Made by a program: the position numbers and the translations under genes. Below, one piece after another: positions 11,946-44,488 of a stretch of DNA of 64,000 bases. Position 1 is the first letter of the stretch. Each line of letters starts with the position of its first letter. Source of the stretch: Candidatus Daviesbacteria bacterium (GTDB lineage: Bacteria; Patescibacteriota; Microgenomatia; Daviesbacterales; UBA10151); assembly GCA_016187035.1 (NCBI GenBank), contig JACPKL010000008.1:99990-163989 (forward strand). Direction: 5' to 3'. The notes below the pieces were generated by a model. The model made no database searches and had not been told where the DNA came from. It was given only the letters and a program-made list of their open reading frames with translations.

Positions 11946-13388
11946 GTGAATAACCAGGTAAAAAGTATTACTAAAAAAAGTGATGATATTTCCGGCTGGT
12001 ATAATGATGTGATTGAGAAAGCTCAGCTGGCTGAGCATGGACCGGTTAAAGGTACTATAATTTTTAGGCCTAAAGGTTATGCTTTATGGGAAGCAATTCA
12101 AAAGAATTTGGATATTAGAATCAAAGATTTAGGTGCTCAAAATGCCTATTTTCCTTTGTTTATCCCTTATTCTTACTTACAAAAAGAAAAAGCACATGTT
12201 AAAGGTTTCTCTCCTGAATTAGCAGTGGTAACTCATGGAGGCGGTGAAAAATTAAAAGAGCCAGTGGTGGTTCGGCCTACCTCTGAAACCATTATGTATG
12301 AGGCATATTCCAGATGGATTCAATCTTTTAGAGATTTACCTTTAATTATTAATCAGTGGAATAATGTAGTGAGGTGGGAAAAGCGTCCTTACTATTTTTT
12401 AAGAACAACTGAATTTTTGTGGCAAGAAGGTCATAGTGCTCATGAAAGTAATGAGGATGCTCAAAAAATGGTAGAAAATGCTCTTAAAATGTATGTAGAC
12501 TTTTACCAAAGTGTTTTAGGCATCTATGGTTATGCTGGCAAAAAATCAGAATCTGAAAAATTTGCTGGGGCAGATTCAACTTTAACTTATGAGATGCTGA
12601 TGCCAGATGGTAAAATAGTTCAAGGCTGTACTTCCCATAATTTAGGTCAAAACTTTGCCAAAGCTTTTAAAGTGCAGTACCAAGATAACAAAGGTCAGCA
12701 GCAATTTGTTTCTCAAACTTCCTGGGGGTTATCCACCCGTTCTATTGGAGCTTTAATTTTAACTCACGGAGATGATAACGGGTTAGTTTTGCCTCCTCAA
12801 ATTGCCCCAACTCAAGTAGTGATTATTCCCATAGTAACTAAATCATCTGATCACGTTTCAATTAACAGGTTAGCAAGACAAGCTTTTGAAATATTGGAAG
12901 GTAATAATATCAGGGTAAAATTAGATGATTCTGATCAATCAATTGGTTGGAAGTTTAACCAATATGATTTGGAAGGGGTACCTATCAGGATAGAAATTGG
13001 AGGAAGGGAAGCGCAAAATCAGGAAGTGAGTATTAAACTAAGAAGTGACAAAGGAAGAGTAATAACCTCAATACTGGAAAATGTGGCAGAAGATGTTCAA
13101 AACTTGCTTCACGAAATCCAAGTTATTATGTTTGAGAAATCAAAAAAGTTTACTTTGGAAAATACCAGGCAAGCTGATAATTATGATCAGTTTAAAGAGA
13201 TAATGGAAACCAGCAGAGGGTTTATAGAAGCTTTCTGGTGTGAAGATCCAAATTGTGAGGCAAAAATAAAAGAAGAGACTAAGGCTACTACCAGGTGTTT
13301 GCCTGTAAATTCAATAGAAGCAAATGGTGAGTGTATTTATTGTAAAAAAAGCGCTAAATTCCGCTGGCTTTTTGGCCAGTCTTATTAA
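11946..13388 (+). CDS. proS: prolyl-tRNA synthetase, archaeal/eukaryote-like type
   Basis: Class IIa core (RPTSET, FLRTTEFLWQEGH) and a C-terminal Cys-rich domain ending ..FGQSY. GTG start. Confidence 0.9.
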   Translation: MNNQVKSITKKSDDISGWYNDVIEKAQLAEHGPVKGTIIFRPKGYALWEAIQKNLDIRIKDLGAQNAYFPLFIPYSYLQKEKAHVKGFSPELAVVTHGGGEKLKEPVVVRPTSETIMYEAYSRWIQSFRDLPLIINQWNNVVRWEKRPYYFLRTTEFLWQEGHSAHESNEDAQKMVENALKMYVDFYQSVLGIYGYAGKKSESEKFAGADSTLTYEMLMPDGKIVQGCTSHNLGQNFAKAFKVQYQDNKGQQQFVSQTSWGLSTRSIGALILTHGDDNGLVLPPQIAPTQVVIIPIVTKSSDHVSINRLARQAFEILEGNNIRVKLDDSDQSIGWKFNQYDLEGVPIRIEIGGREAQNQEVSIKLRSDKGRVITSILENVAEDVQNLLHEIQVIMFEKSKKFTLENTRQADNYDQFKEIMETSRGFIEAFWCEDPNCEAKIKEETKATTRCLPVNSIEANGECIYCKKSAKFRWLFGQSY

Positions 13389-13393
13389 TAAAA

Positions 13394-13431
13394 CCCTAGG
13401 TGTCATCGTATTTCCACCTCCGAGGTAGGAT
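13394..13431. repeat. repeat type D (CCCTAsGTGTCATCGTATTTCyACCTCsGAGGTAGGAT)
   Basis: 35/38 nt identical to 43067-43104. Both copies start 4-5 nt after a stop codon (proS, purH). Confidence 0.8.
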
Positions 13432-20244: not shown

Positions 20245-21876
20245 ATGCCTATAGAACAAGAAGCAAACGGATCAGCTGCTAATGATGCAACAAGCTTTCT
20301 TTTAGATGGGGGTGAACCTCAGTCTCCGGGGTTAGGTTTTCAAATTAAAGCTGTAGATAAAATTTGGCAACTGATTGGAAATGGAACCGCGAGTCTTGTC
20401 AGCGTTAGATCTGGTTTTGTTTCTGTTGGTCCTGAATTAGGTAATTTAGGAGGAAGCCCGGCAGTGAGATTTATAGATCACCATCTTACTCTAAAGCTTG
20501 ATATGTACAAACAGGGAAGCGGAGGTTTCTATCAGGCTATACCAGATACAGTTATTCAAAGAAGACTTAGTCAAGTGTCTCCTAATTTGGTTGCTGATGG
20601 AGTAAATATATACTTGGTAACTAAAGCTGGGAGAGAAAGAATTGCTTTTAAGAATACAAATAATGAGTTCATTTATGATCCTGCTTCAAGAGTGGTAACA
20701 AATGCAGAAGAGTTACAAAGACATTTAGATTTAGCAGCCGGAATTTATAAAGCATACGCAACAGCATATTATGAGGTAAATGATTTGAGTGTTCCATCAG
20801 ATCAGCTAATTTTTGATGGGAAATTTTTAGAAGAACAAGAAGCACTTCGAAATAGTGAATCTAATAGTGTTAGACAAGGGGAGTTACCACAGGGAGTTAT
20901 AGTTGCAGAAAAGCCAGATGCTACTTTTGAAGATATTGGGGGTCAAGAAAAAGCAACTGCCATTTGCAAAAGGTTTGCTGAACAATTGCGATATCCGGAG
21001 GTGTTTGCTCTTCAGGGTTCTGAACCTCCCCGAGGAATTTTACTATTTGGTCCTCCTGGTACTGGAAAAACCTTACTTGCTAAAGCAATCGCTAATGGAG
21101 CAGAGGCCAATTTTCTACATGTTGATGCTTCAGATGTAGCCGGGCAAGGACTATATGGACAATCAGAAAGAGATGTAAGAGGAATATTTGATCTGGCTAA
21201 AAAACTTTCAGAAGCTGATGGCAAGCATGTTGTAATTTTTATTGATGAAGGAGACTTACTCTTACCTAGGGCTGGAGGAACAGGAGGAGGGCAACGTCAT
21301 GAAGCTACAGGGAAAACTGTGAGCATTTTTGCCCAGGAAATGGATGGATTAGTATCTTCACGAAAGATTACAGTAATCATATCAACAAATGAGCCACAAA
21401 ATTTAGATCCCAGGATTTTATCAAGAATGGAAGAAAGTGAAGAAGTCCCTTTACCGGATCAAAATGGTTTACAGCAAATATTGCGAATTCACCTTGCTAA
21501 ATTTAATAGAAAAGCGCATAGTGAAATTTTTGACGATGATATTAATCTAGATATACTATCCGAAAAAGCTCGTAGACAAGGATTAAGTGGAAGGGATATT
21601 GCAGATGTTGTTGCCCTACTTGCTCGTCAAAGAGGACAAAGACAACTAACACTTATAGAAGAGGCGATACGACAGGGAAGATTACAGTTACCCCCAGATG
21701 GAGATGAAAAAGCCTTTATAAACGGTATTGCAATTAGTATAGCTAAAGGGGATATAACAGAGGGAGAAGGGTTTATATTACCGCGTGCGACTACAGAAGA
21801 GCTTGGTGCAGTAATAGATAATGCTAAAAGTTTACTAAAAGCTAGACCTGAACGAAATATAGGTTTTAGACAATAA
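20245..21876 (+). CDS. orphan classic-clade AAA ATPase with an unrecognised 230-aa N-terminal domain
   Basis: FEDIGGQEKA, Walker A GPPGTGKT, Walker B VIFIDEGD, second region of homology ..STNEPQNLDPRILSRMEE..PLPD. No TM, protease or second ATPase domain. Confidence 0.7.
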   Translation: MPIEQEANGSAANDATSFLLDGGEPQSPGLGFQIKAVDKIWQLIGNGTASLVSVRSGFVSVGPELGNLGGSPAVRFIDHHLTLKLDMYKQGSGGFYQAIPDTVIQRRLSQVSPNLVADGVNIYLVTKAGRERIAFKNTNNEFIYDPASRVVTNAEELQRHLDLAAGIYKAYATAYYEVNDLSVPSDQLIFDGKFLEEQEALRNSESNSVRQGELPQGVIVAEKPDATFEDIGGQEKATAICKRFAEQLRYPEVFALQGSEPPRGILLFGPPGTGKTLLAKAIANGAEANFLHVDASDVAGQGLYGQSERDVRGIFDLAKKLSEADGKHVVIFIDEGDLLLPRAGGTGGGQRHEATGKTVSIFAQEMDGLVSSRKITVIISTNEPQNLDPRILSRMEESEEVPLPDQNGLQQILRIHLAKFNRKAHSEIFDDDINLDILSEKARRQGLSGRDIADVVALLARQRGQRQLTLIEEAIRQGRLQLPPDGDEKAFINGIAISIAKGDITEGEGFILPRATTEELGAVIDNAKSLLKARPERNIGFRQ

Positions 21877-21918
21877 ATGATAAGCATGATAAAATCTTAC
21901 AAAAGAGGCAAATAGTAT

Positions 21919-22197
21919 ATGGGTTTCATGGATAATTTAAAACAGCTTGGTGATCTTAAGAAAATGAGAGATCAGGCTATGGAAGTGCAAAAAAGACTGG
22001 CTGGTATCAAAATTACCATAGAACATAAAGGAGTGGTGATAGTGATGACAGCAGACCAGAAAGTCCAGTCAATATCAGGCGAGATGGATCCTCAAAAAGT
22101 AACTGAGGCTGTTAATGAAGCATTAAAACAATCCCAAAAAGTAGCAGCTGATGAAATGAAACCACTTATGGGTGGTTTAGGTATGCCGGGGATGTGA
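21919..22197 (+). CDS. ybaB: nucleoid-associated protein YbaB/EbfC
   Basis: ..LKKMRDQAMEVQKRL..GVVIVMTADQKV..I. Precedes recR. Confidence 0.8.
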   Translation: MGFMDNLKQLGDLKKMRDQAMEVQKRLAGIKITIEHKGVVIVMTADQKVQSISGEMDPQKVTEAVNEALKQSQKVAADEMKPLMGGLGMPGM

Positions 22198-22237
22198 CCG
22201 AGTCTTCGAGGTCATCCTGAGCTTGTCGAAGGATCTG
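22198..22237. repeat. repeat type B (GTCATCCTGAGCTTGTCGAAGGATC core)
   Basis: CTTCGA / TCGAAG arms flank GGTCATCCTGAGCTTG. Positions 22214-22230 are the exact reverse complement of 23955-23971 in cysS. Confidence 0.75.
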
Positions 22238-22262
22238 TTTTAATGGTAATATCTGCTTTACC

Positions 22263-22862
22263 ATGGCAGCACAGATTCCCAAATCTATCCAGAATTTAAT
22301 TGAGGCTTTTGAGAGGTTACCTGGGATAGGTCCCAAGACTGCCCAGAGGTTAACTTTTTATTTACTCCATGCTCCAATTGAAGAAGCCAGAAACTTAGCT
22401 CAGGCTGCTACTGCGATGAAAGAAAAAACCATACTTTGTTCTATTTGCTTTAATATTGGAGAGCAGGACCCTTGTAATATTTGTGCAGATTACAGTCGCG
22501 ACAAAACAATTATCATGGTGGTAGAAAACCCGCTTGATGTTCTAGCTTTGGAAAAAGCTAATTTTAAGGGTTTATATCATGTATTGCATGGAGTAATTTC
22601 CCCTTTAGAGAATATCGGCCCTGATGAAATTCATATCAGAGAGCTTTTACCCAGGCTTAAAGATGGGGTGGTTAAAGAGCTTATTTTAGCTACCAACCCT
22701 ACTATGGAAGGGGAAGCAACAGCCATGTATATGCAAAGGTTAATTTCTCCTTTGGGAGTTAAAGTAACTAGAATTGCCAGAGGATTGCCTGTTGGATCTG
22801 ATATAGAGTATGCTGATGAGACAACCTTATCCAGGGCACTTGAAGGAAGAAAGGAATTTTAG
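22263..22862 (+). CDS. recR: recombination protein RecR
   Basis: LPGIGPKTAQRLTFYLL HhH, a Cys4 zinc finger, and a Toprim segment. Confidence 0.9.
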   Translation: MAAQIPKSIQNLIEAFERLPGIGPKTAQRLTFYLLHAPIEEARNLAQAATAMKEKTILCSICFNIGEQDPCNICADYSRDKTIIMVVENPLDVLALEKANFKGLYHVLHGVISPLENIGPDEIHIRELLPRLKDGVVKELILATNPTMEGEATAMYMQRLISPLGVKVTRIARGLPVGSDIEYADETTLSRALEGRKEF

Positions 22863-22875
22863 CTAAGATAATTAC

Positions 22876-23247
22876 ATGAAGAGTACTCTTTTAGAAGTTG
22901 CTAAAGATGTTAAAGATGCAGTAGGAGAAATGATCGAGCAGGGAGTTCAAAGTGTCGCTGCACCGCAGCTTACTCCCAAGCAAATCCAGCAAAAGCAAGG
23001 AGAAGATCAAAAACAAATATTAGAGGCCAGAAGAAAAATAGCCTGGTATCAAAAAATAGATGAAGAGCAAAAAAAGGTGAGAGCCCAAAGTCAACAAAAA
23101 GAAGCTCAAAGGTTGCAGTCTGAGCAGCGTCAAGAACAGGCAGAGGTACAACAAACTCAAATCAAACAAGTCCAAAAACAAGCTACTCCTGAGGAAGTTT
23201 TAAGAACCCAGATTGAACGCAAAGCTGGTAAAGGATTAGGCGGATGA
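22876..23247 (+). CDS. hypothetical Gln/Glu/Lys-rich coiled-coil protein
   Basis: ORF only. Low-complexity Q-rich sequence. ATGA overlap with cysS. Confidence 0.4.
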   Translation: MKSTLLEVAKDVKDAVGEMIEQGVQSVAAPQLTPKQIQQKQGEDQKQILEARRKIAWYQKIDEEQKKVRAQSQQKEAQRLQSEQRQEQAEVQQTQIKQVQKQATPEEVLRTQIERKAGKGLGG

Positions 23248-24698
23248 AACTGTATAATACCTTGACTCGAAAAATAGAAAATTTTACTCCCATAAAACCG
23301 TCTTATGTAGGCATGTATACCTGTGGGCCTACAGTATATGACTATACCCATATTGGTCATCTTCGAAAGTATGTTGGTGATGATATTTTAAGAAGGATTT
23401 TAGAAGCCAATGGATATTCAGTTAAACATGTGATGAATATTACAGATGTGGGACATCTTGTTTCAGATCAGGACCAGGGAGATGATAAATTGGAGAAAGG
23501 TGCCAAGGAAAGAGGCCAGACTGTTTGGGAAGTTGCTAAATATTTTGAGGATTATTTTTTTAGATCAACTAAACTTGTAAATATTGAAAGGCCATCAGTT
23601 GTATGTCGTGCTACAGAGCATATAGGAGAACAGATTAAATTAATTCAAAAATTAGAAGAAAAAGGTTTTACTTACCAAACTGAAGAAGCTATTTATTTTG
23701 ATATTTCTAAATTCCCACATTACGGAAAATTGTCTGGGCAAGATTTGAAAGAGAAACAAACTGGGGTTAGAGGAGATGTAGTAGTGGATCCTAACAAGAA
23801 AAACCCTCAAGACTTTGCTTTGTGGTTTTTTGTGGTAGGAAGGTTTGTAACGCATAGTATGAGATGGGCTTCTCCTTGGGGTGAGGGGTTTCCCGGCTGG
23901 CATATTGAGTGTTCTGCCATGTCAATGGAATATTTAGGGAATAGTTTTGATCCATTCGACAAGCTCAGGATCAATGGTGAGCAAACCCGTACTGAGCGAA
24001 GTCGAAGTAGTCGAACCATTGATATACATACAGGAGGAATAGATCATATTCCGGTTCACCATACTAATGAGATTGCCCAGTCAGAGGCAGCTTCCGGAAA
24101 AATGTTTGTTAGAGTTTGGGTGCACCATAATTTTTTAATAGTAGATGGAGAGAAGATGTCTAAATCAAAAAAGAACTTTTATAGAATTGATGAAATTTTA
24201 TCCAAAGGCTTTGATCCTTTAGCCTTGAGGTATCTGTTTTTAACAGCTCACTATAGGGATAGCTTAAATTTTACCTGGAAATCTTTAGAAAGCACTCAGA
24301 ATGCTTTAAACAATTTGAGAGAAGAGATTAGGTTGTGGGAGCAGCCTAAAGGGAGTGTCGGACAATATTGGCAGAAGTTTGCCGAGGCTGCTAATAATGA
24401 CCTGAATACCCCTCAGGCAGTGGCAATTATGTGGGAGATGGTTAAATCAGATATCCCAACGTTTCAAAAGAGCAAAGATCTTGCAAAGATGGATGAAATA
24501 TTAGGGTTAGGGCTGCAGGATTTTATTGGCCAAAAGATTGAAGTGCCAAAGGAAGTTATGGAACTGGTGAATATTAGAGAAACTGTAAGGAAAAAAGGAG
24601 ATTATAAAGAGTCGGATAAACTGCGCCATCAGATTAAAAAGTTAGGCTTTGAAGTAGAAGATACCCCATCTGGTCCAAAAGTCAAACAAAGTGTATAA
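23244..24698 (+). CDS. cysS: cysteinyl-tRNA synthetase carrying a 24-codon in-frame insertion
   Basis: HIGH region (YDYTHIGHLR), WHIECSAMS, HHTNEIAQSEA, KMSKS. The canonical LG..FDIHGGG block is split as LGNSFD[24 aa]IHTGG. Confidence 0.9.
   Translation: MKLYNTLTRKIENFTPIKPSYVGMYTCGPTVYDYTHIGHLRKYVGDDILRRILEANGYSVKHVMNITDVGHLVSDQDQGDDKLEKGAKERGQTVWEVAKYFEDYFFRSTKLVNIERPSVVCRATEHIGEQIKLIQKLEEKGFTYQTEEAIYFDISKFPHYGKLSGQDLKEKQTGVRGDVVVDPNKKNPQDFALWFFVVGRFVTHSMRWASPWGEGFPGWHIECSAMSMEYLGNSFDPFDKLRINGEQTRTERSRSSRTIDIHTGGIDHIPVHHTNEIAQSEAASGKMFVRVWVHHNFLIVDGEKMSKSKKNFYRIDEILSKGFDPLALRYLFLTAHYRDSLNFTWKSLESTQNALNNLREEIRLWEQPKGSVGQYWQKFAEAANNDLNTPQAVAIMWEMVKSDIPTFQKSKDLAKMDEILGLGLQDFIGQKIEVPKEVMELVNIRETVRKKGDYKESDKLRHQIKKLGFEVEDTPSGPKVKQSV
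23952..24023. repeat. 72-nt palindromic mini-element (type B-related) inserted in frame in cysS
   Basis: Flanked by TTGAT at 23947-23951 and 24019-24023. Internal inverted repeat TTCGACAAGCTCAGGA / TACTGAGCGAAGTCGAA. 17-nt exact match (reverse complement) to 22214-22230. Confidence 0.8.
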
Positions 24699-24712
24699 TT
24701 ACGTTTTAGTTA

Positions 24713-25375
24713 ATGAATACAAATATCATTACCATTGATGGTCCGACATCTAGCGGCAAAAATAGTGTCGGATTTTTACTTTCTCAAAAATTAGGCTACC
24801 AATATATTGATACAGGTATGATTTATCGGGTAGGTACTTATTTAGTGCTAAAACAGAATATAAATCTTAATGATGTTTTACAAATAACTGGTATATTTAA
24901 AGATCTAAACTTAGAAATCAAAAAGAGCAATGGAGGTTTAATAATCCTTAATAATGGGGCAGATTTGACAAGCCAGTTACACTCTAAAGAAGTGACTGAT
25001 GCAGTATCTAAGGTGGCAGCTTACAAAGAAGTCAGGGAAGTGACTAAGCTGATCCAAAGAAAATTAGGTGTTTTAGAAAACACAGTCATGACAGGAAGGG
25101 ATATTGGTTCAGAGATTTTTCCGGAAGCTAAGCATAAATTTTACCTGACAGCTGATGTAAAGGTAAGGGCAAAGAGAAGGTTTGACCAGCTAGTAAAATT
25201 AGATTCTACTGTGCAATATGAAGATGTATTAAACTCCATGATTGAACGGGATAAAAAAGATTCTATCAGAGAGGTTTCTCCTTTAAGGATTCCGGAGGGA
25301 GCAGTAGTGATAGATAATACTAGTTTAAATATTGAGCAGACTGTTTCAGAGGTGTTAAAACACATTCATGTTTAA
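24713..25375 (+). CDS. cmk: cytidylate kinase
   Basis: ITIDGPTSSGKNSVG..LGYQYIDTGMIYR. Confidence 0.85.
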   Translation: MNTNIITIDGPTSSGKNSVGFLLSQKLGYQYIDTGMIYRVGTYLVLKQNINLNDVLQITGIFKDLNLEIKKSNGGLIILNNGADLTSQLHSKEVTDAVSKVAAYKEVREVTKLIQRKLGVLENTVMTGRDIGSEIFPEAKHKFYLTADVKVRAKRRFDQLVKLDSTVQYEDVLNSMIERDKKDSIREVSPLRIPEGAVVIDNTSLNIEQTVSEVLKHIHV

Positions 25376-26627
25376 CCAAAGAAGTTTAAGTAACGGATTA
25401 ACTTTAATAACTATTAATCAGCCTCATTTGGATTCTGTCACCACCTTGGTGGCGGTAGGAGCAGGATCAAGATACGAAACCAAAAAAATCTCCGGCATTT
25501 CCCATTTTTTAGAGCACATGTTTTTTAAAGGCTCCAAAAAATATCCTACTGCTATAGAAATTGCCAATTTAGTAGATGGCATAGGGGCAATTAATAATGC
25601 AGCTACAGATAAAGAAGTAACTTATTACTGGATTAAATCTGATAGTAAACATCTGGAGCTTTCTTCCGATATTTTATCTTCAATGATTAGCCAGTCGCTT
25701 TTGGCAGAGTCAGAAATCGAAAGAGAAAAAGGAGTCATTATTGAAGAGCTGAGAATGTATCGGGATGATCCAAGCCGTTATGTCTGGAATTTATATGAGA
25801 GGCTCCAATTTGGAGATCAGCCTTTGGGTTGGGATATTGGCGGAGATGAAAAAACTGTCACCTCCTTAATTAGGGAAGACTTTATAAAGTATATGAATGG
25901 CTTATATTCCCCAAAGAATATGGCTTTAGTATATGTTGGTAATTTGCCAAAAGATATTGAAAAAATTGCTGCTGATTATTTTAGTGATTTATTAGAAAAG
26001 CCTTATGGAAAATTCATACCATATAAGTCAAATGTGCAAACCAAACCTTGTCTTAATATATTCTACAAAAAAACAGACCAGGTTAATTTAATATTAGGTG
26101 TTCAGGCTTACAACCGTAATGACCCCAAAAAATATATTTTAAAAATATTAACAGCTATTTTGGGAGAAGGTATGTCTTCCAGGTTATTTATACAGCTTAG
26201 GGAACGAAGGGGTTTGGCCTATCATGTGGGCGCTGCGTTTACCCCGTATCAAGACAGCGGCGCCTTTACAGTTTATGCCGGCGTCAAGCTTGAGAAAGTT
26301 TATGAAAGCTTGGAAGTAATTAAAGCAGAGCTGGAAAAAGCCAAAGGTAAAGTGGGAGAAGATGAGTTAAAAAAGGCTAAAGAGATGATTAGGGGAAGAA
26401 TAGCTATTAAGAGTGAATCAACAAATTTCCTGGCAGAATACTTTGGAACCAATTTTGTGCTGGATAGGAAAATAGAAACTTTTGATGAGGTTTTAGAAAA
26501 AGTTGATAAAATATCTTTGGATGATGTTCAGTTAGTAGCCAATGAATTATTGCAAAACGAAAAGTATAACTTGCAGCTAATTGGACCCTTTAAGGATACT
26601 AATAAATTTGTTAAAGTTTTAGGATGA
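25368..26627 (+). CDS. M16 family zinc peptidase (insulinase-like)
   Basis: Inverted zinc motif HFLEHMFFKGS, plus EREKGVIIEE. Confidence 0.8.
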   Translation: MFNQRSLSNGLTLITINQPHLDSVTTLVAVGAGSRYETKKISGISHFLEHMFFKGSKKYPTAIEIANLVDGIGAINNAATDKEVTYYWIKSDSKHLELSSDILSSMISQSLLAESEIEREKGVIIEELRMYRDDPSRYVWNLYERLQFGDQPLGWDIGGDEKTVTSLIREDFIKYMNGLYSPKNMALVYVGNLPKDIEKIAADYFSDLLEKPYGKFIPYKSNVQTKPCLNIFYKKTDQVNLILGVQAYNRNDPKKYILKILTAILGEGMSSRLFIQLRERRGLAYHVGAAFTPYQDSGAFTVYAGVKLEKVYESLEVIKAELEKAKGKVGEDELKKAKEMIRGRIAIKSESTNFLAEYFGTNFVLDRKIETFDEVLEKVDKISLDDVQLVANELLQNEKYNLQLIGPFKDTNKFVKVLG

Positions 26628-41545: not shown

Positions 41546-43062
41546 TAAAGAAGTTTGCCTTACTAAGTGTTTATGATAAAACCGGGATTTCTGATTTAGC
41601 TAAGATTTTAAGAGAGCTTGGATATGAAATTATTTCCACCGGCGGAACTTTTGAAGTTTTGAAAAATGACGGGATAAAAGTTATTCCAATTGAAGAGATC
41701 ACCGGAAATCCTAGGGATTCATTTGATGGCAGGATGAAAACTATCAGTTTTCAGATTGAGTCAGGAATTTTGTTTGACAGGGAAAATCCCAAGCATCTGG
41801 AGCAGGTTCAAAAATTAAATATTCCCCAAATAGATATTGTTGTTTGCAATCTTTATCCATTTGAAGAAAAACCTTCTATTGAAACAATTGATGTTGGTGG
41901 TCCCACTATGATTAGGGCAGCTGCTAAAAATTACCAAAATTGTGTAGTAATTGTTGACCCAAAAGATTATGGTCAAGTTAAAAATGTTTTGGATAATAAG
42001 CAATTAAGAAAACAATTGGCTTCTAAGGCTTTTTATCATTTGTCTTTTTATGACAGCCAGATTGGTAAGTTTTTTAATGAAGAAAAGTTTCCCAAAGAGG
42101 TGACAATTCCCCTCAGGAAAACTAATGTCTTAAGGTATGGAGAAAATCCGCATCAAGATGGAACTTTATATTTAACTGCGAATACTAATTCGCCACTTAG
42201 CAAATTAAACCATCTTTGGGGAAGGCAGTTATCTGGTACAAATATCGGTGACATCTATGCAGGAGTGGAGACTGTCAGACAATTTCAAGAAGCTGCAGCT
42301 TGTGTGGTCAAACATTTAAGCCCTTGTGGTATTGCGACAGGAACTGATGCAAAAGAAGCTTTAGATAGGGCAGTTGAAGCAGATCCTGTTTCTGCATTTG
42401 GTGGTGTAATAGTCTTAAATAGAAAAATGGATCTTGAGGCTGCAAAAATCGTAGCCACTTTTAAAAATGAAAAAGAGGGTAATATTGATATAGTGGCTGT
42501 TCCAGAGATTTCTGATCAGGCTTGTAAGCTACTAAGGGAAGTCAGAAAAAGTATGGGAATTTATACATTCGGCAATATACCTGATTACCGTACTGAAAAA
42601 TGGGATATAAAATATTTTGCAGGAGGAATGCTTTTACAGGATTTTGATGACAATGTGGAAAATAGCTTTAAAGATTGGGAAGTGGTGACAAAAACTAAAC
42701 CAATTGAAAAACAGTATAGATTAATGCAGTTTGGTTTTAAGGCAGTGAAAGCAGTCAGGTCAAATGCTGTTTTAGTAGTTGATAAAGATATGCCAATGAC
42801 CAGGGGAATTGGTTCCGGACAAACATCAAGGGTGGGTGCTGCTAAGATTGCCCTAGAGCAGGCAGGTGATTTTGCCAAAGGCGGTATATTAATCAGTGAT
42901 AGTTTTTTCCCTTTTGATGATTGTGTCAAGCTTGCGGCAAAATTTGGAATTAGTGCTATAGTAGAGCAAGGGGGATCTGTTAATGATGCAGCGTCAGTGG
43001 CAGCTGCAAATGAGGTAGGCATTTCAATGGTGTTTACAGAAAGGAGAGCATTTAGGCACTAG
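41542..43062 (+). CDS. purH: bifunctional AICAR transformylase/IMP cyclohydrolase
   Basis: LLSVYDKTG..STGGT, VCNLYPFE, RYGENPHQ, VKHLSPCG, GSGQTSRV, SDSFFPF, C-terminal ..FTERRAFRH. Confidence 0.9.
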   Translation: MIKKFALLSVYDKTGISDLAKILRELGYEIISTGGTFEVLKNDGIKVIPIEEITGNPRDSFDGRMKTISFQIESGILFDRENPKHLEQVQKLNIPQIDIVVCNLYPFEEKPSIETIDVGGPTMIRAAAKNYQNCVVIVDPKDYGQVKNVLDNKQLRKQLASKAFYHLSFYDSQIGKFFNEEKFPKEVTIPLRKTNVLRYGENPHQDGTLYLTANTNSPLSKLNHLWGRQLSGTNIGDIYAGVETVRQFQEAAACVVKHLSPCGIATGTDAKEALDRAVEADPVSAFGGVIVLNRKMDLEAAKIVATFKNEKEGNIDIVAVPEISDQACKLLREVRKSMGIYTFGNIPDYRTEKWDIKYFAGGMLLQDFDDNVENSFKDWEVVTKTKPIEKQYRLMQFGFKAVKAVRSNAVLVVDKDMPMTRGIGSGQTSRVGAAKIALEQAGDFAKGGILISDSFFPFDDCVKLAAKFGISAIVEQGGSVNDAASVAAANEVGISMVFTERRAFRH

Positions 43063-43066
43063 AAGA

Positions 43067-43104
43067 CCCTACGTGTCATCGTATTTCTACCTCGGAGGTA
43101 GGAT
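43067..43104. repeat. repeat type D
   Basis: 35/38 identical to 13394-13431. Begins 4 nt after the purH stop. Confidence 0.8.
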
Positions 43105-43114
43105 ATAGGATATC

Positions 43115-44488
43115 ATGATTATGAAAGATATTTTTAAAAATTATTCAAGTCCGTTTTCTTGGAGGTATGGGTCTGAGGAGATGAGACAGATCTTTTCCGA
43201 GGAAAATAAATATAAATTATGGAGAAAAATTTGGGTGGAGTTGGCTAGAGCACAAAACAAAGAGGGATTAGTGGGAAAAGAAGAATTAGAAGATTTAGAG
43301 AAAAATCAGAACAATATTAATATAGAAAGAATTTGGGAAATTGAAAAAGAGACAAGACATGATGTGGTAGCAGCAATTAAAGAATTTGGCGAGATTGCCA
43401 AAATTGGCGGTGGGAAAATACACCTTGGCGCTACTTCAATGGATATTAATGACAATACGGAAACCGTAAGAATGTACGAAGCGCTCGATATAATAGAAAA
43501 TCAATTAATAAAATTAATTAAAACCTTTGGTGAAAAAATTAATAAGTATGCTGACTTTGTTTGTATGGGTTACACCCATTTACAACCGGCAGAACCCACT
43601 ACTTTAGGATATAGATTTGCCTTTTATGCACAAGATCTATTAATGGATTTAGAGTTACTTCGATTTGTTAAAAAGAACTTAAAGAGTAAAGGATTAAAAG
43701 GGGCTGTTGGAACATCTGCCAGTTATGTCAGTTTATTAAATTTAGAAAAGGCCCAGCAGATGGAAAAAGAGGTATTAGAAGGATTAGGGGGATTAGAAGC
43801 CTATGAAATAACCAACCAGACTTCACCAAGAAAAATAGAAGTCTGGTTAGGGAATTTATTATCATCTATTGCTCAAAGTTTATATAAATTTGCTTTTGAT
43901 TTAAGAATTATGCAGTCTCCGCAGTTTGGCCAGTGGCAGGAGCCTTTTTCTAAATCCCAGGTTGGTTCATCAGCTATGCCTTTTAAGAAAAATCCAATTA
44001 AAGCTGAGCAAATCTGTTCTTTATCAAGACTCACGGTAAGTTTGTCAAGGGTGCTTTGGGATAATGCTTCGCATATGTTACTGGAAAGGACTCTTGATGA
44101 TTCAGCAAACAGAAGAATCGTCATCCCTGAGATGTTTTTGGCAATTGATGAAATGTTAACCAGTGCAGATAATATTGTTGCCGGGTTAATGATAAACGAT
44201 AAACAAGTAACGAAAAACCTTGAAACCTATTGGCCTTTTTCAGCATCAGAAGGAATAATTATTGAAGCAGTGAAAAAAGGTGCAGACAGGCAAAGAATAC
44301 ATGAAGTCTTAAGAGAAATTTCCACGGAAGCTGAACTAAAGCCTATGGTAGAATTATTTCTTAAGTCTCAAGAAATAAACAAATATTTAAGTTCTGAGGA
44401 AATTAAAAAATTACTGGATGCTAAAAATCATATTGGAAATGCCAAAGAAAAAGCTTTAGAATTGGTTAGTAAGATTAATAAAATATGA
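43115..44488 (+). CDS. purB: adenylosuccinate lyase
   Basis: Fumarate-lyase signature GSSAMPFKKNP, YTHLQPAEPTTLG. Confidence 0.9.
   Translation: MIMKDIFKNYSSPFSWRYGSEEMRQIFSEENKYKLWRKIWVELARAQNKEGLVGKEELEDLEKNQNNINIERIWEIEKETRHDVVAAIKEFGEIAKIGGGKIHLGATSMDINDNTETVRMYEALDIIENQLIKLIKTFGEKINKYADFVCMGYTHLQPAEPTTLGYRFAFYAQDLLMDLELLRFVKKNLKSKGLKGAVGTSASYVSLLNLEKAQQMEKEVLEGLGGLEAYEITNQTSPRKIEVWLGNLLSSIAQSLYKFAFDLRIMQSPQFGQWQEPFSKSQVGSSAMPFKKNPIKAEQICSLSRLTVSLSRVLWDNASHMLLERTLDDSANRRIVIPEMFLAIDEMLTSADNIVAGLMINDKQVTKNLETYWPFSASEGIIIEAVKKGADRQRIHEVLREISTEAELKPMVELFLKSQEINKYLSSEEIKKLLDAKNHIGNAKEKALELVSKINKI

What the first reader, a model, noticed from the sequence alone, without database searches (positions are those of the whole stretch)
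23947..24023. 72-nt palindromic mini-element inserted in frame in the catalytic core of cysS, flanked by a 5-bp direct repeat
Seen in sequence: ..AGTTTTGAT[CCATTCGAC..GTCGAACCATTGAT]ATACAT.. TTGAT occurs at 23947-23951 and again at 24019-24023, exactly 72 nt apart. Removing one copy plus the intervening sequence restores ..LGNSFDIHTGGIDH.., the canonical CysRS LG..FDIHGGG block. The insert has an imperfect inverted repeat (TTCGACAAGCTCAGGA / TACTGAGCGAAGTCGAA). Its positions 23955-23971 are the exact reverse complement of intergenic repeat 22214-22230. It is open in frame (24 codons, PFDKLRINGEQTRTERSRSSRTID) and locally GC-richer than the gene. Established knowledge: the site lies between the ECSAM Cys and the HHxNE motif, which supply zinc ligands in E. 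coli CysRS, so the insertion hits the active-site region of an essential, usually single-copy gene. Inference: this is a selfish palindromic element with a target-site duplication that is tolerated as a translated loop, as with Rickettsia palindromic elements. An alternative is that it is skipped by ribosomal bypassing between the matching GAT codons, as in T4 gene 60 or the mitochondrial byp elements.
Basis: partly seen in the sequence, partly recalled or inferred. Interest (0 to 1): 0.8.

Follow-up and report, generated by a model that had tools for sequence, protein, structure and literature searches.

The report
Hairpin repeat inserted in-frame in cysS
A 72-base piece of a widespread, apparently undescribed family of hairpin-forming repeat DNA sits in frame inside the essential cysteinyl-tRNA synthetase gene of a Candidatus Daviesbacteria (CPR) bacterium and is most likely simply translated as a floppy 24-residue surface loop, as happens with the palindromic elements of Rickettsia.

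Summary
cysS (23244-24698, +) carries exactly 72 extra nt (23952-24023) that none of the 119 nearest CysRS homologues have. The nearest orthologue shows the empty site TTTGAT|ATT. The insert is not a private sequence. It is a copy of a modular hairpin repeat whose unit is a variable, covarying stem closing an almost invariant 13-14-nt loop (TGAGC-NNN-GTCGAA). That unit occurs in many bacterial phyla. In low-GC, CPR-like contigs two inverted units form a 48-nt "double hairpin". The cysS copy is that element plus a third unit (24 nt) nested in the second loop. The "target-site duplication" TTGAT is really the outer arm of a three-arm system (TTGAT / ATCAA / TTGAT). No classical TSD was found in the family. 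The same element lies in frame in GatC, MurB, MurC, TrxB-like, IspE, PurH and a GH130 enzyme. The GH130 case gives a second filled/empty pair obeying the same rule. In-gene copies are always stop-free, and their length is a multiple of 3 wherever it was measured (48, 72 and 78 nt). AlphaFold2 models the 24 residues as a disordered loop before an intact strand. Translation is therefore favoured; ribosomal bypassing is not supported. The mobilising mechanism is unknown.

The parts
23244..24698 (+). cysS (cysteinyl-tRNA synthetase), 484 aa including the insert; HIGH, KMSKS and the zinc-ligand motifs are intact
23947..23951 (+). native TTGAT (codons ..F-D of the conserved SFD|IHTGG block). It serves as the left arm of hairpin 1 and marks the insertion point (the insert follows it)
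   Evidence: empty site TTTGAT|ATT in the nearest orthologue L001; 119/119 homologues have SF/D-IHTGG uninterrupted
23952..24023 (+). the 72-nt inserted DNA = 24 codons PFDKLRINGEQTRTERSRSSRTID. Because of the TTGAT repeat the boundaries can be slid by up to 5 nt
23954..23967 (+). loop of unit 1, antisense orientation (A)TTCGACAAGCTCA, closed by TTGATCC (23947-23953) / GGATCAA (23968-23974)
23968..23977 (+). central arm GGATCAATGG. It is complementary to both the left arm (TTGATCC) and the right arm (CCATTGAT)
23978..24015 (+). loop of unit 2, sense orientation, TGAGCAAA...GTCGAA, split by the nested piece
   Evidence: compare L144 GGATTGATGG TGAGCAAAGTCGAA CCATCAA
23986..24009 (+). nested 24 nt CCCGTACTGAGCGAAGTCGAAGTA = a third unit (stem TAC/GTA, loop TGAGCGAAGTCGAA at 23993-24006)
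   Evidence: Analogous nesting is seen in L131/L143/L163/L186/L231 (+16 nt) and in L309/L310 (+30 nt)
24016..24023 (+). right arm CCATTGAT. Its last five bases repeat the native TTGAT, and together with the following ATA CAT they rebuild ..I-D-I-H-T-G-G
22195..22234 (-). second, degenerate copy of the same element in the spacer between the 92-aa ORF (21919-22197) and recR-like ORF 22263-22862. On the minus strand it reads ATCC TTCGACAAGCTCA GGATGACC TCGAAGACTC GGTCA. One arm overlaps the TGA stop codon of the upstream gene

Best explanation
The 72 nt are a copy of a non-autonomous, modular hairpin repeat that entered cysS immediately 3' of a native TTGAT and is translated.

Anatomy
- The basic unit is a short stem of free sequence closing a nearly invariant loop, TGAGC-(2-3 nt)-GTCGAA.
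- In low-GC (CPR-type) genomes two units in opposite orientation share a central arm. This gives a 48-nt element of the form X-CC-[TTCGACAAGCTCA]-GG-X'-NGG-[TGAGCNAAGTCGAA]-CCN-X.
- The cysS copy is this element with arms X = TTGAT, X' = ATCAA, plus a third unit of 24 nt nested in loop 2.

Why it is tolerated
- The inserted DNA ends in the same five bases that precede it. The reading frame and the residues (I)D-IHTGG of the Rossmann strand are therefore rebuilt.
- The 24 extra, mostly charged residues hang as a disordered loop between helix 221-231 and strand 259-265.
- The enzyme most likely still works. Only such in-frame, stop-free, surface-located insertions survive in an essential gene (survivorship).

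Shown versus inferred
- Shown: family membership, the empty site, the three-arm covariation, in-frame copies in other enzymes, and the frame being kept over time.
- Inferred: that the protein is made with the loop and is active.
- Inferred: that insertion is directed by similarity or complementarity between the element's arms and the target. Candidate routes are guide-to-target pairing on single-stranded DNA, as in IS200/IS605/REP systems, or microhomology-mediated template switching.
- No mobilising enzyme was identified.
For: 1. Insert absent from 119/119 homologues, and an exact empty site in L001.
2. The 17-mer core recurs in the window. A family HMM finds just these two places in 64 kb.
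The left flank, which was not part of the query, closes a hairpin: first closing pair Watson-Crick in 222/242 units.
4. In 61 units that were not themselves the search hit, 9/9 stem pairs show changes on both sides. Covariation score is 0.472 against 0.213 for shuffles (0/500 reach it).
5. The two-unit pattern gives >=120 metagenome stretches. L144 differs from the cysS copy essentially by the 24-nt nested piece and by coordinated flips in all three arms. Arms covary: stem 2 has 5/8 pairs and stem 1 has 4/8 pairs with double changes, 0/500 shuffles reach the score.
6. In-frame copies lie in Pfam-verified MurC, TrxB-like, GH130, IspE, MurB, GatC and PurH. No low-GC copy sits in a stop-containing frame inside a gene; the two candidates are intergenic.
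7. Second filled/empty pair, in GH130: empty GTATTTAAT|ATTTAT (L311); filled GTATTTAAT[CCATTCGAC..GTCGAAGTATTAAT]ATTTAT (L241). The arms TTAAT/ATTAA/TTAAT again match the native target. Every homologue inspected (the first 70 alignment rows) except P0123-P0125 and P0128/P0129/P0131 lacks any insert. Relatives at 88% and 84% identity keep it open and have gained a further 30-nt nested unit.
8. AF2: pLDDT <50 for residues 235-255, helix 221-231, strand 259-265. The overall fold matches CysRS 1u0b (TMq 0.72).
9. All catalytic motifs are intact.
Against: - There is no expression, proteomic or read-level data. Translation and enzyme activity are inferred.
- Only one assembly carries this cysS allele (P0001: 1 member, 1 contig).
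- Only two copies occur in 64 kb, so this genome is not visibly 'invaded'.
- No transposase or other recurrent neighbour was found near 240 loci. One IS200-like Y1_Tnp pseudogene in L020 is >1 kb from the motif and flanked by other repeats.
- The statistic 'all in-gene copies are open' rests on about 8 independent genes. With 4/6 frames open, p is about 0.04 (my arithmetic).
- The AF2 model is MSA-driven and also has low confidence in residues 145-218, so it cannot prove tolerance.
- A second cysS elsewhere in the genome could not be excluded. There is none in the window.
Confidence: 0.75

Rival explanations
1. Programmed translational bypassing: the ribosome takes off at GAT (23949-23951) and lands at the matching GAT (24021-24023). 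It skips the 72 nt, as in T4 gene 60 or the mitochondrial byp elements, so the protein has the canonical ..SFDIHTGG..
For: - Matched GAT codons lie exactly at the two ends.
- The take-off codon lies in the 5' side of a predicted hairpin, TTGATCC/GGATCAA.
Against: - The codon after take-off is an ordinary CCA, not a stop or a rare codon.
- The gap is 72 nt, a multiple of 3, and stop-free.
- Other in-gene copies are likewise stop-free in the host frame, and those whose length was measured are multiples of 3: 48 nt in GatC and GH130, 78 nt in two GH130 relatives. Nested variants that lie outside long ORFs add 16 nt.
- The insert's codons drift at the amino-acid level while staying open across relatives of 84-88% identity.
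- Hairpin stability is unexceptional (z about -1.9).
Confidence: 0.04
2. A classical MITE: a cut-down insertion sequence with terminal inverted repeats that was inserted by a DDE transposase, producing a 5-bp target-site duplication (TTGAT).
For: - A 5-bp direct repeat flanks the insert, and there is an internal inverted repeat.
- The element family is dispersed.
Against: - The flanking repeat is complementary to an internal segment (ATCAA). This three-way relation holds and covaries across the family, which a random TSD cannot do.
- The longest flank-to-flank repeats in 37 copies are distributed like a shuffled control.
- In GH130 and TrxB the 'duplicate' is similar but not identical to the native sequence: GTATTTAAT against GTATTAAT, and GTCCAA against GTCAA.
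- No parent IS or transposase was found.
- At 48 nt it is far below usual MITE size.
Confidence: 0.07
3. Assembly or chimera artefact: the 72 nt were spliced into cysS by the metagenome assembler at a short shared k-mer.
For: - Only one contig and one protein record carry this allele.
- The exact protein was not on record in the assemblies index.
- No reads could be inspected.
Against: - An artefact would not be expected to be exactly in frame, to rebuild the conserved D-IHTGG, and to have arms matching the native TTGAT.
- The same type of insertion is seen in other genes in independent assemblies from JGI, NCBI and ENA, including three independent assemblies of the GH130 insertion.
Confidence: 0.04
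4. The hairpin is kept in cysS because it does something at the nucleic-acid level, and the peptide is a by-product. It could be an mRNA structure that slows translation or controls stability, or a protein- or nuclease-binding site.
For: - The loop is nearly invariant across phyla while the stems covary. That is the signature of a selected structure or recognition site.
- G-T wobbles outnumber A-C mismatches 15:4 in stem 2 on the strand that is the mRNA strand in cysS.
- The intergenic copy abuts a stop codon.
Against: - No Rfam family matches.
- 119 relatives do without it at this site.
- Stem 1 shows no strand bias, 5:5.
- Conservation of the loop can equally reflect recognition by a mobilising enzyme.
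- After insertion the GH130 copies decay: GTCGAA to ATAGAA, GGATTAAT to GGACTAAT.
Confidence: 0.07
5. The interrupted cysS is a dying or redundant copy, and the working CysRS is encoded elsewhere.
Against: - The ORF is full length with all invariant residues of the family, including C27, C223, H272/H273, E276, HIGH and KMSKS.
- It scores 1127 bits against itself and about 875 against its nearest homologue, with no other lesions.
- There is no second copy in the 64 kb.
- CPR genomes normally have one cysS (my own knowledge).
Confidence: 0.03

Closest known systems
Rickettsia palindromic elements (RPEs; Ogata et al. 2000; summarised in PMC10969869)
   Same: - Short palindromic repeats with no coding capacity of their own are found both between genes and in frame inside unrelated housekeeping genes.
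- They add a conserved, hydrophilic peptide that is thought to loop out on the protein surface.
- Nearly all in-gene copies are in frame (for RPEs; here).
   Different: - RPEs are about 100-150 bp and were described in Rickettsia. This element is 48 nt (72 with nesting) and is found in CPR/Patescibacteria. Its unit occurs in many phyla.
- It is modular: units nest inside each other's loops.
- Its stems match the target sequence.
- Sequence relatedness to RPE families was not tested.
REP sequences / REPINs mobilised by RAYT (TnpA-REP) Y1 transposases (PMC3116915, PMC3337134, PMC6006769)
   Same: - Short hairpin repeats.
- The mobile form is a doublet of two units in inverted orientation.
- Singlets also occur.
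- There is no TSD.
- Recognition is thought to be of structure plus a short conserved motif.
   Different: - REPs have a conserved 5' GT[AG]G foot, a conserved stem and a 2-5-nt loop. They are species-specific and extragenic.
- Here the loop is conserved and the stem is free, the same 17-mer occurs across phyla, copies lie inside genes, and no RAYT was found nearby.
IS200/IS605 family (IS608, ISDra2) and their hairpin-ended derivatives
   Same: - Insertion is immediately 3' of a short specific sequence, without duplication.
- The cleavage and target sites are read by pairing with a short internal 'guide' next to a hairpin.
- Here the central arm is complementary to the native 5-mer that precedes the insert and to the element's own 3' end, in both resolvable cases.
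   Different: - No TnpA is associated.
- The left and right sites are the same sequence and share a single 'guide'.
- The two hairpins display their conserved loop on opposite strands.
- The mechanism is purely inferred.
Translational bypass elements (T4 gene 60; Magnusiomyces byps)
   Same: Matched codons at both ends, and a hairpin at the take-off site.
   Different: There is no stop or unassigned codon after take-off. The gap is in frame and open, and family members inside genes are stop-free in the host frame.

Membership tests
Rickettsia palindromic elements (RPE) | Dispersed palindromic repeat that occurs in frame inside unrelated protein-coding genes as well as between genes | tested here: met
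   cysS plus an intergenic copy in the window. In-frame copies in GatC, MurB, MurC, TrxB-like, IspE, PurH and GH130.
Rickettsia palindromic elements (RPE) | About 100-150 bp element belonging to one of the described RPE sequence families of Rickettsia | tested here: not met
   The element is 48 nt (72 nt with nesting) and the host is Cand. Daviesbacteria. Direct sequence comparison with RPE consensus sequences was not possible because none was available.
MITE | Target-site duplication of fixed length and unrelated sequence at each copy | tested here: not met
   Flanking repeats are the stem arms, complementary to an internal arm. There is no excess of flank repeats over the shuffled control.
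MITE | Terminal inverted repeats shared with a parent insertion sequence | tested here: inconclusive
   Internal inverted repeats exist (loop 1 is roughly the reverse complement of loop 2). No parent IS or recurrent transposase was seen in 240 loci.
REP / REPIN-RAYT | Doublet of two hairpin units in inverted orientation as the repeated entity | tested here: met
   >=120 metagenome stretches match the two-unit pattern.
REP / REPIN-RAYT | Conserved 5' GT[AG]G foot, a conserved G+C-rich stem and a short 2-5-nt loop; species-specific sequence | tested here: not met
   Here the 13-14-nt loop is conserved, the stem varies, and the same core occurs in many phyla.
REP / REPIN-RAYT | A RAYT (Y1 HuH) gene flanked by the repeats in the same genome | tested here: inconclusive
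   No recurrent neighbouring ORF. The only Y1_Tnp found (L020) is not adjacent to the motif. Whole genomes were not searched.
IS200/IS605-type single-strand transposition | Insertion 3' of a specific short target that pairs with an internal guide; no TSD | tested here: inconclusive
   Two filled/empty pairs fit: TTGAT|insert..ATCAA..TTGAT, and TTAAT|insert..ATTAA..TTAAT. Two cases are too few, and template switching predicts the same pattern.
IS200/IS605-type single-strand transposition | Y1 transposase acting on the element | not testable with these tools
   This needs whole-genome co-occurrence analysis or biochemistry.
Programmed translational bypass (gene 60 / byp) | Matched take-off and landing codons | tested here: met
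   GAT at 23949-23951 and at 24021-24023.
Programmed translational bypass (gene 60 / byp) | Stop, rare or unassigned codon right after take-off; a gap not constrained to be in frame or open | tested here: not met
   The next codon is CCA. The gap is 72 nt, open in frame. All in-gene family members are stop-free in the host frame, and the measured lengths are multiples of 3.
Known structured RNA (Rfam) | A match to any Rfam 15 covariance model | tested here: not met
   Nothing relevant at E<=10 in 21500-25500. Nothing at the motif positions in 18 loci at gathering score. No tRNA or tmRNA.

The most novel reading that the evidence does not exclude
The cysS insert would be the visible tip of an undescribed, pan-bacterial class of modular hairpin repeats with these properties:
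- an invariant 13-14-nt loop TGAGC-NNN-GTCGAA on a free stem;
- spread by a mechanism in which the stem arms either are copied from the target or select it by base pairing (left arm = native target, central arm = its complement, right arm = its repeat);
- units that can nest in one another's loops;
- in streamlined CPR genomes, repeated remodelling of surface loops of essential enzymes.

The cross-phylum conservation of the loop would then point to a conserved, still unidentified trans-acting enzyme or host function.
Probability: 0.3. Interest if true: 0.85.

Novelty: new variant of a known kind. Interest (0 to 1): 0.6.

Why it matters
In-frame 'selfish DNA' inside essential genes has been a Rickettsia curiosity. 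Here the same phenomenon appears in Candidate Phyla Radiation bacteria, caused by a much smaller, modular element.

- **Annotation.** FDKLR / LSLSK / PELVEG-type peptides in predicted proteins of uncultivated bacteria are repeat-derived. They inflate 'lineage-specific insertions' in CPR proteins.
- **Protein evolution.** The element is a ready source of disordered surface loops, and hot spots exist. The GH130 site was hit by two different repeats.
- **Mobile DNA.** A hairpin repeat with a conserved loop, covarying stems and target-matched arms, shared by many phyla, matches no Rfam family. None of the text searches run here retrieved a description of it, although the held library is incomplete. 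It therefore poses a concrete, testable question about what recognises it.

Tried and rejected
**Searches that found no known RNA**
- Rfam and ARAGORN. The insert is 72 nt, about tRNA size, and contains GGTTCGA on the minus strand, but no tRNA or RNA family matched.

**Literature**
- Full-text searches for the DNA motif, for the encoded peptides, for descriptions of hairpin repeats with conserved loops, and for CPR MITEs or palindromic repeats found nothing relevant.

**Peptide-level census of proteins carrying the insert**
- The tool needs >=40 aa. A concatenated 56-aa query gave only 2 meaningless hits. That search was wasted.

**Looking for a mobilising gene**
- All-vs-all clustering of 4514 ORFs from 240 loci showed only orthologous neighbourhoods.
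It is not adjacent to the motif.
- The 'class 3' HuH-associated structures of PMC6006769 (foot CnGA, about 600 copies in Solibacter) were checked in the paper's supplement. They are a different repeat, C-N-GAGCCGCGACCGTNAGGGAGCG.

**Other checks**
- A classical TSD is rejected.
- The nested 24-mer has no relative (<=4 mismatches) in the loci held at that point, L001-L241.
- The look-up of encoding contigs could not locate the source contig of P0001.
- Hit counts for the bare 17-mer are not evidence on their own. About 70 chance matches are expected in 596 Gb (my arithmetic). The evidence lies in the non-random flanks.
Full report
**1. The observation**

The window is low-GC DNA (29-40% in 2-kb windows). 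Its cysS product is 100% identical to a protein annotated in Candidatus Daviesbacteria (CPR/Microgenomates).

The ORF 23244-24698 (+) encodes a 484-aa class I CysRS:
- Pfam tRNA-synt_1e, E=1.8e-92.
- Best solved relatives are CysRS 3sp1, 8qhp and 1li5.

All PDB alignments split into two blocks ending at residue 236 and restarting at 258. In a MAFFT alignment with the 119 best homologues out of 5.8 billion proteins (65-78% identity), every one has a 24-column gap..MSMEYLG(D/N)SF------DIHTGGIDH...

The DNA of the nearest orthologue (L001) reads TCT TTT GAT|ATT CAC. The window reads AGT TTT GAT [CCA TTC ... ACC ATT GAT] ATA CAT. So 72 nt were added immediately after a native TTGAT, and the added DNA ends in TTGAT.

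Further checks:
- The insert has 48.6% G+C against 37.0% for the rest of the gene.
- TTCGACAAGCTCAGGAT (23955-23971) recurs as an exact reverse complement at 22214-22230. Chance expectation is 0.16 even with three mismatches.

**2. What the insert is**

They come from Alpha- and Betaproteobacteria, Bacteroidota, Chloroflexota, Acidobacteriota, Verrucomicrobiota, Planctomycetota, Eremiobacterota, Nitrospirota, Dependentiae, Patescibacteria and others, including cultured isolates.

A bare 17-mer is expected about 70 times by chance in 596 Gb (my arithmetic), so the count proves nothing. The flanks do:
- The bases 5' of the query, which were not searched for, pair with the bases at its 3' end. 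This makes a hairpin whose 13-nt loop is TTCGAC-NN-GCTCA, or TGAGC-NN-GTCGAA on the other strand.
- Over 242 units the first three closing pairs are Watson-Crick in 222, 211 and 184 cases.
- In 61 further units that were not themselves the search hit, all nine stem positions show changes on both sides (CATCC/GGATG, CATGC/GCATG, CATGG/CCATG, CACCC/GGGTG ...). The covariation score is 0.472 against 0.213 in shuffles (0/500 reach it), and slid controls collapse.

So the unit is a free stem on a nearly invariant loop. No Rfam family matches it. I found no description of it in the held literature.

*The double hairpin in low-GC contigs.* A metagenome scan for two units in opposite orientation again hit the 120-stretch limit. 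Among the low-GC (CPR-like) contigs the dominant form is a 48-nt 'double hairpin':

TCAATCC(A) TTCGACAAGCTCA GGATTGA(T/C)(G/C)(C/G) TGAGC(A/G)AAGTCGAA (G/C)(C/G)(A/G)TCAA

The central arm can pair with either outer arm. Both pairings covary:
- Stem 2: 5/8 pairs with double changes, 0/500 shuffles reach the score.
- Stem 1: 4/8 pairs, 0/500. For this alignment one optional loop base was removed to bring the sequences into register.

*The cysS copy.* L144 reads ..TCAATCCA TTCGACAAGCTCA GGATTGATGG TGAGCAAAGTCGAA CCATCAA.. The cysS copy is the same thing with two differences:
- All three arms are changed in concert: TCAAT/ATTGA/TCAA becomes TTGAT/ATCAA/TTGAT.
- 24 extra nt, CCCG-TAC-TGAGCGAAGTCGAA-GTA, form a third unit and sit between TGAGCAAA and GTCGAA of loop 2.

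Nesting of a unit in another unit's loop recurs elsewhere:
- +16 nt in L131, L143, L163, L186 and L231.
- +30 nt in loop 1 of the GH130 copies L309 and L310.

A family HMM finds only two places in the window: the cysS insert and a degenerate copy at about 22195-22234, one arm of which overlaps the stop codon of the upstream gene.

**3. The 'target-site duplication'**

The flanking TTGATs are the outer arms of the three-arm system, so they are not a classical TSD. In 37 low-GC copies the longest repeat shared by the two flanks is distributed like a control in which flanks are paired at random.

Yet one TTGAT in cysS is certainly native, because it encodes the conserved F-D.

A second resolvable case behaves the same way. 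The GH130 gene of L241 reads ..VFN[PFDKLRINAEQGRSIN]IYS.. In the 70 homologue rows inspected, all but six read ..F-NIYS.. without an insert. The six exceptions are the three related filled copies (P0123-P0125) and three carrying a different repeat (P0128, P0129, P0131).
- Empty site (L311): GTA TTT AAT|ATT TAT.
- Filled site: GTATTTAAT[CCATTCGACAAGCTCAGGATTAATGCTGAGCAAGGTCGAAGTATTAAT]ATTTAT.

The arms are TTAAT / ATTAA / TTAAT.

In both cases the element lies 3' of a native 5-mer that equals its own 3' end and is complementary to its central arm. Beyond 5 nt the similarity is imperfect: GTATTTAAT against GTATTAAT here, and GTCCAA against GTCAA in TrxB. This argues against literal duplication. 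It favours an element-borne arm that finds a similar target.

Two mechanisms would give this pattern:
- Guide-to-target pairing on single-stranded DNA, as documented for IS200/IS605 and REP/RAYT systems.
- Microhomology-mediated template switching from a donor copy.

I could not discriminate between them, and I found no associated transposase. This part is inference.

**4. Translated, or removed?**

The same element lies in frame in Pfam-verified enzymes:

| Locus | Enzyme |
|---|---|
| L240 | MurC |
| L204 | TrxB-like reductase |
| L241 | GH130 |
| L165 | IspE |
| L085 | MurB |
| L021 | GatC: MAEIN[PFDKLRIDGERSRTIN]KK.. |
| L178 | PurH (opposite strand frame) |

GC-rich relatives occur in a cyclase-like protein in five contigs.

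Points bearing on translation:
- Most copies use the frame (P/S)FDKLRI.(G/P/A)E..R..I., which gives a charged peptide.
- Four of the six frames are open.
- Among the low-GC contigs I found no copy in a stop-containing frame inside a gene. The two candidates are intergenic.
- The in-gene insert lengths that could be fixed against flanks or an empty site are 48, 72 and 78 nt. Nested variants outside long ORFs add 16 nt.
- GH130 relatives of 88% and 84% identity retain the insert, have changed some of its residues, have begun to lose its pairing, and have acquired a further 30-nt unit, all without losing the frame.

This is what translation predicts and what bypassing or RNA excision does not. 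In cysS the codon after the would-be take-off GAT is CCA, not a stop. The hairpin is not unusually stable (z about -1.9).

**5. Consequence for the enzyme**

- HIGH, KMSKS, C27, C223, H272/H273 and E276 are all present.
- AlphaFold2 (55-sequence MSA, mean pLDDT 75) gives helix 221-231, a segment 235-255 with pLDDT <50, and strand 259-265 (IDIHTGG). The terminal ..TID of the insert replaces the displaced ..SFD at the start of the strand.
- The model superposes on CysRS 1u0b (TMq 0.72).
- In a Rossmann fold, substrates bind at the C-terminal ends of the parallel strands (established knowledge). A loop at the N-terminal end of this strand therefore points away from the pocket. That is inference, and the model has other low-confidence regions.

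**6. Comparison with known systems and verdict**

Functionally this is the RPE phenomenon, in which palindromic repeats are tolerated in frame in housekeeping genes. It is not an RPE by size or host, and sequence relatedness was not tested.

It resembles a REPIN in being an inverted doublet of hairpin units. It fails the REP definition, which requires a conserved GT[AG]G foot and stem, a short loop, species specificity and an extragenic location.

It is not a classical MITE, having no TSD and no parent IS. It fails the defining features of bypass elements.

I therefore class it as a new variant of a known kind. The cysS case itself is a clear, well-supported example. The more surprising thing is the family behind it: an invariant loop, covarying and target-matched stems, nesting, and cross-phylum distribution including 67 stretches in IMG/VR viral contigs.

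Not tested:
- expression;
- read support;
- the rest of the genome;
- the mobilising machinery.

Noticed in passing
window 13390-13431 and 43063-43104: A 42-nt repeat (90% identical), AA.ACCCTA.GTGTCATCGTATTTC.ACCTC.GAGGTAGGAT. Each copy starts 1-2 nt after a stop codon (proS-like ORF ends at 13388; purH ends at 43062) and ends in a Shine-Dalgarno-like GAGGTAGGA. At 43063-43104 the next gene follows at 43115. It may be a conserved intergenic expression signal.
   Followed up: partly
window 22195-22234: The intergenic copy of the hairpin repeat has a truncated second loop (TCGAAGACTC). Its outer arm TGACC includes the TGA stop codon of the upstream 92-aa ORF.
   Followed up: partly
L312 (GH130 of P0128; also P0129, P0131), same site as the L241 insert: A different hairpin repeat, encoding PPEACFAKAPARQADQPLADNIFP, is inserted in frame at essentially the same position of the GH130 enzyme. 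This suggests a hot spot, either for insertion or for tolerance.
   Followed up: partly
L124, L134, L170, L204, L217, L219, L240 flanks: Many CPR-type double hairpins sit inside short tandem arrays of 7-8-nt units (TCAAAAC / AAAGTCC-like) that continue on both sides. In MurC and TrxB these arrays are translated too..ISNLKNQ..DQISKRQIKNQK...
   Followed up: no
L122, L125, L128, L129, L139, L146 and about 15 more loci: A second low-GC subfamily has the FDKLR double hairpin nested inside another palindrome, GGAATCCAG...CCATGGATTCC. That palindrome looks like a separate widespread repeat unit.
   Followed up: no
L136, L145, L161, L168, L220 (GC about 0.67): Five related contigs encode a long protein with the in-frame repeat peptide ALLRQAQDAHTEPVEVR just before a ..RIGLNAGEP.. 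motif that I read as cyclase-like (not checked against Pfam). The insert is conserved across diverged orthologues.
   Followed up: no
L033 3700-3760; L119; L012; L022; L017: In some GC-rich genomes the half-unit occurs as 22-nt tandem arrays (CTTCGACAAGCTCAGGATGAGG)n, or as runs of GCTCAGGATGACA, rather than as hairpins.
   Followed up: no
L242-L308 (IMG/VR): The 17-mer core occurs in 67 stretches of viral or proviral contigs. Whether phages carry and spread the unit was not examined.
   Followed up: no
L224 1005-3228: This CPR-like contig has a 16S rRNA gene of about 2.2 kb that contains a group I intron (Rfam RF00028 at 2063-2346). It also has two tandem copies of the double hairpin next to a tRNA gene.
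   Followed up: no
supplement 2 of PMC6006769: A Pseudomonas fluorescens RAYT-flanking REP is listed as GTGGTGAGCGGGCTTGTCGAATCG.. It contains TGAGC-(6 nt)-GTCGAA, a partial resemblance to the conserved loop described here. This is a lead, not a test.
   Followed up: no
whole window: GC skew is positive in every 2-kb window and the cumulative skew rises monotonically. This is consistent with one replichore.
   Followed up: no
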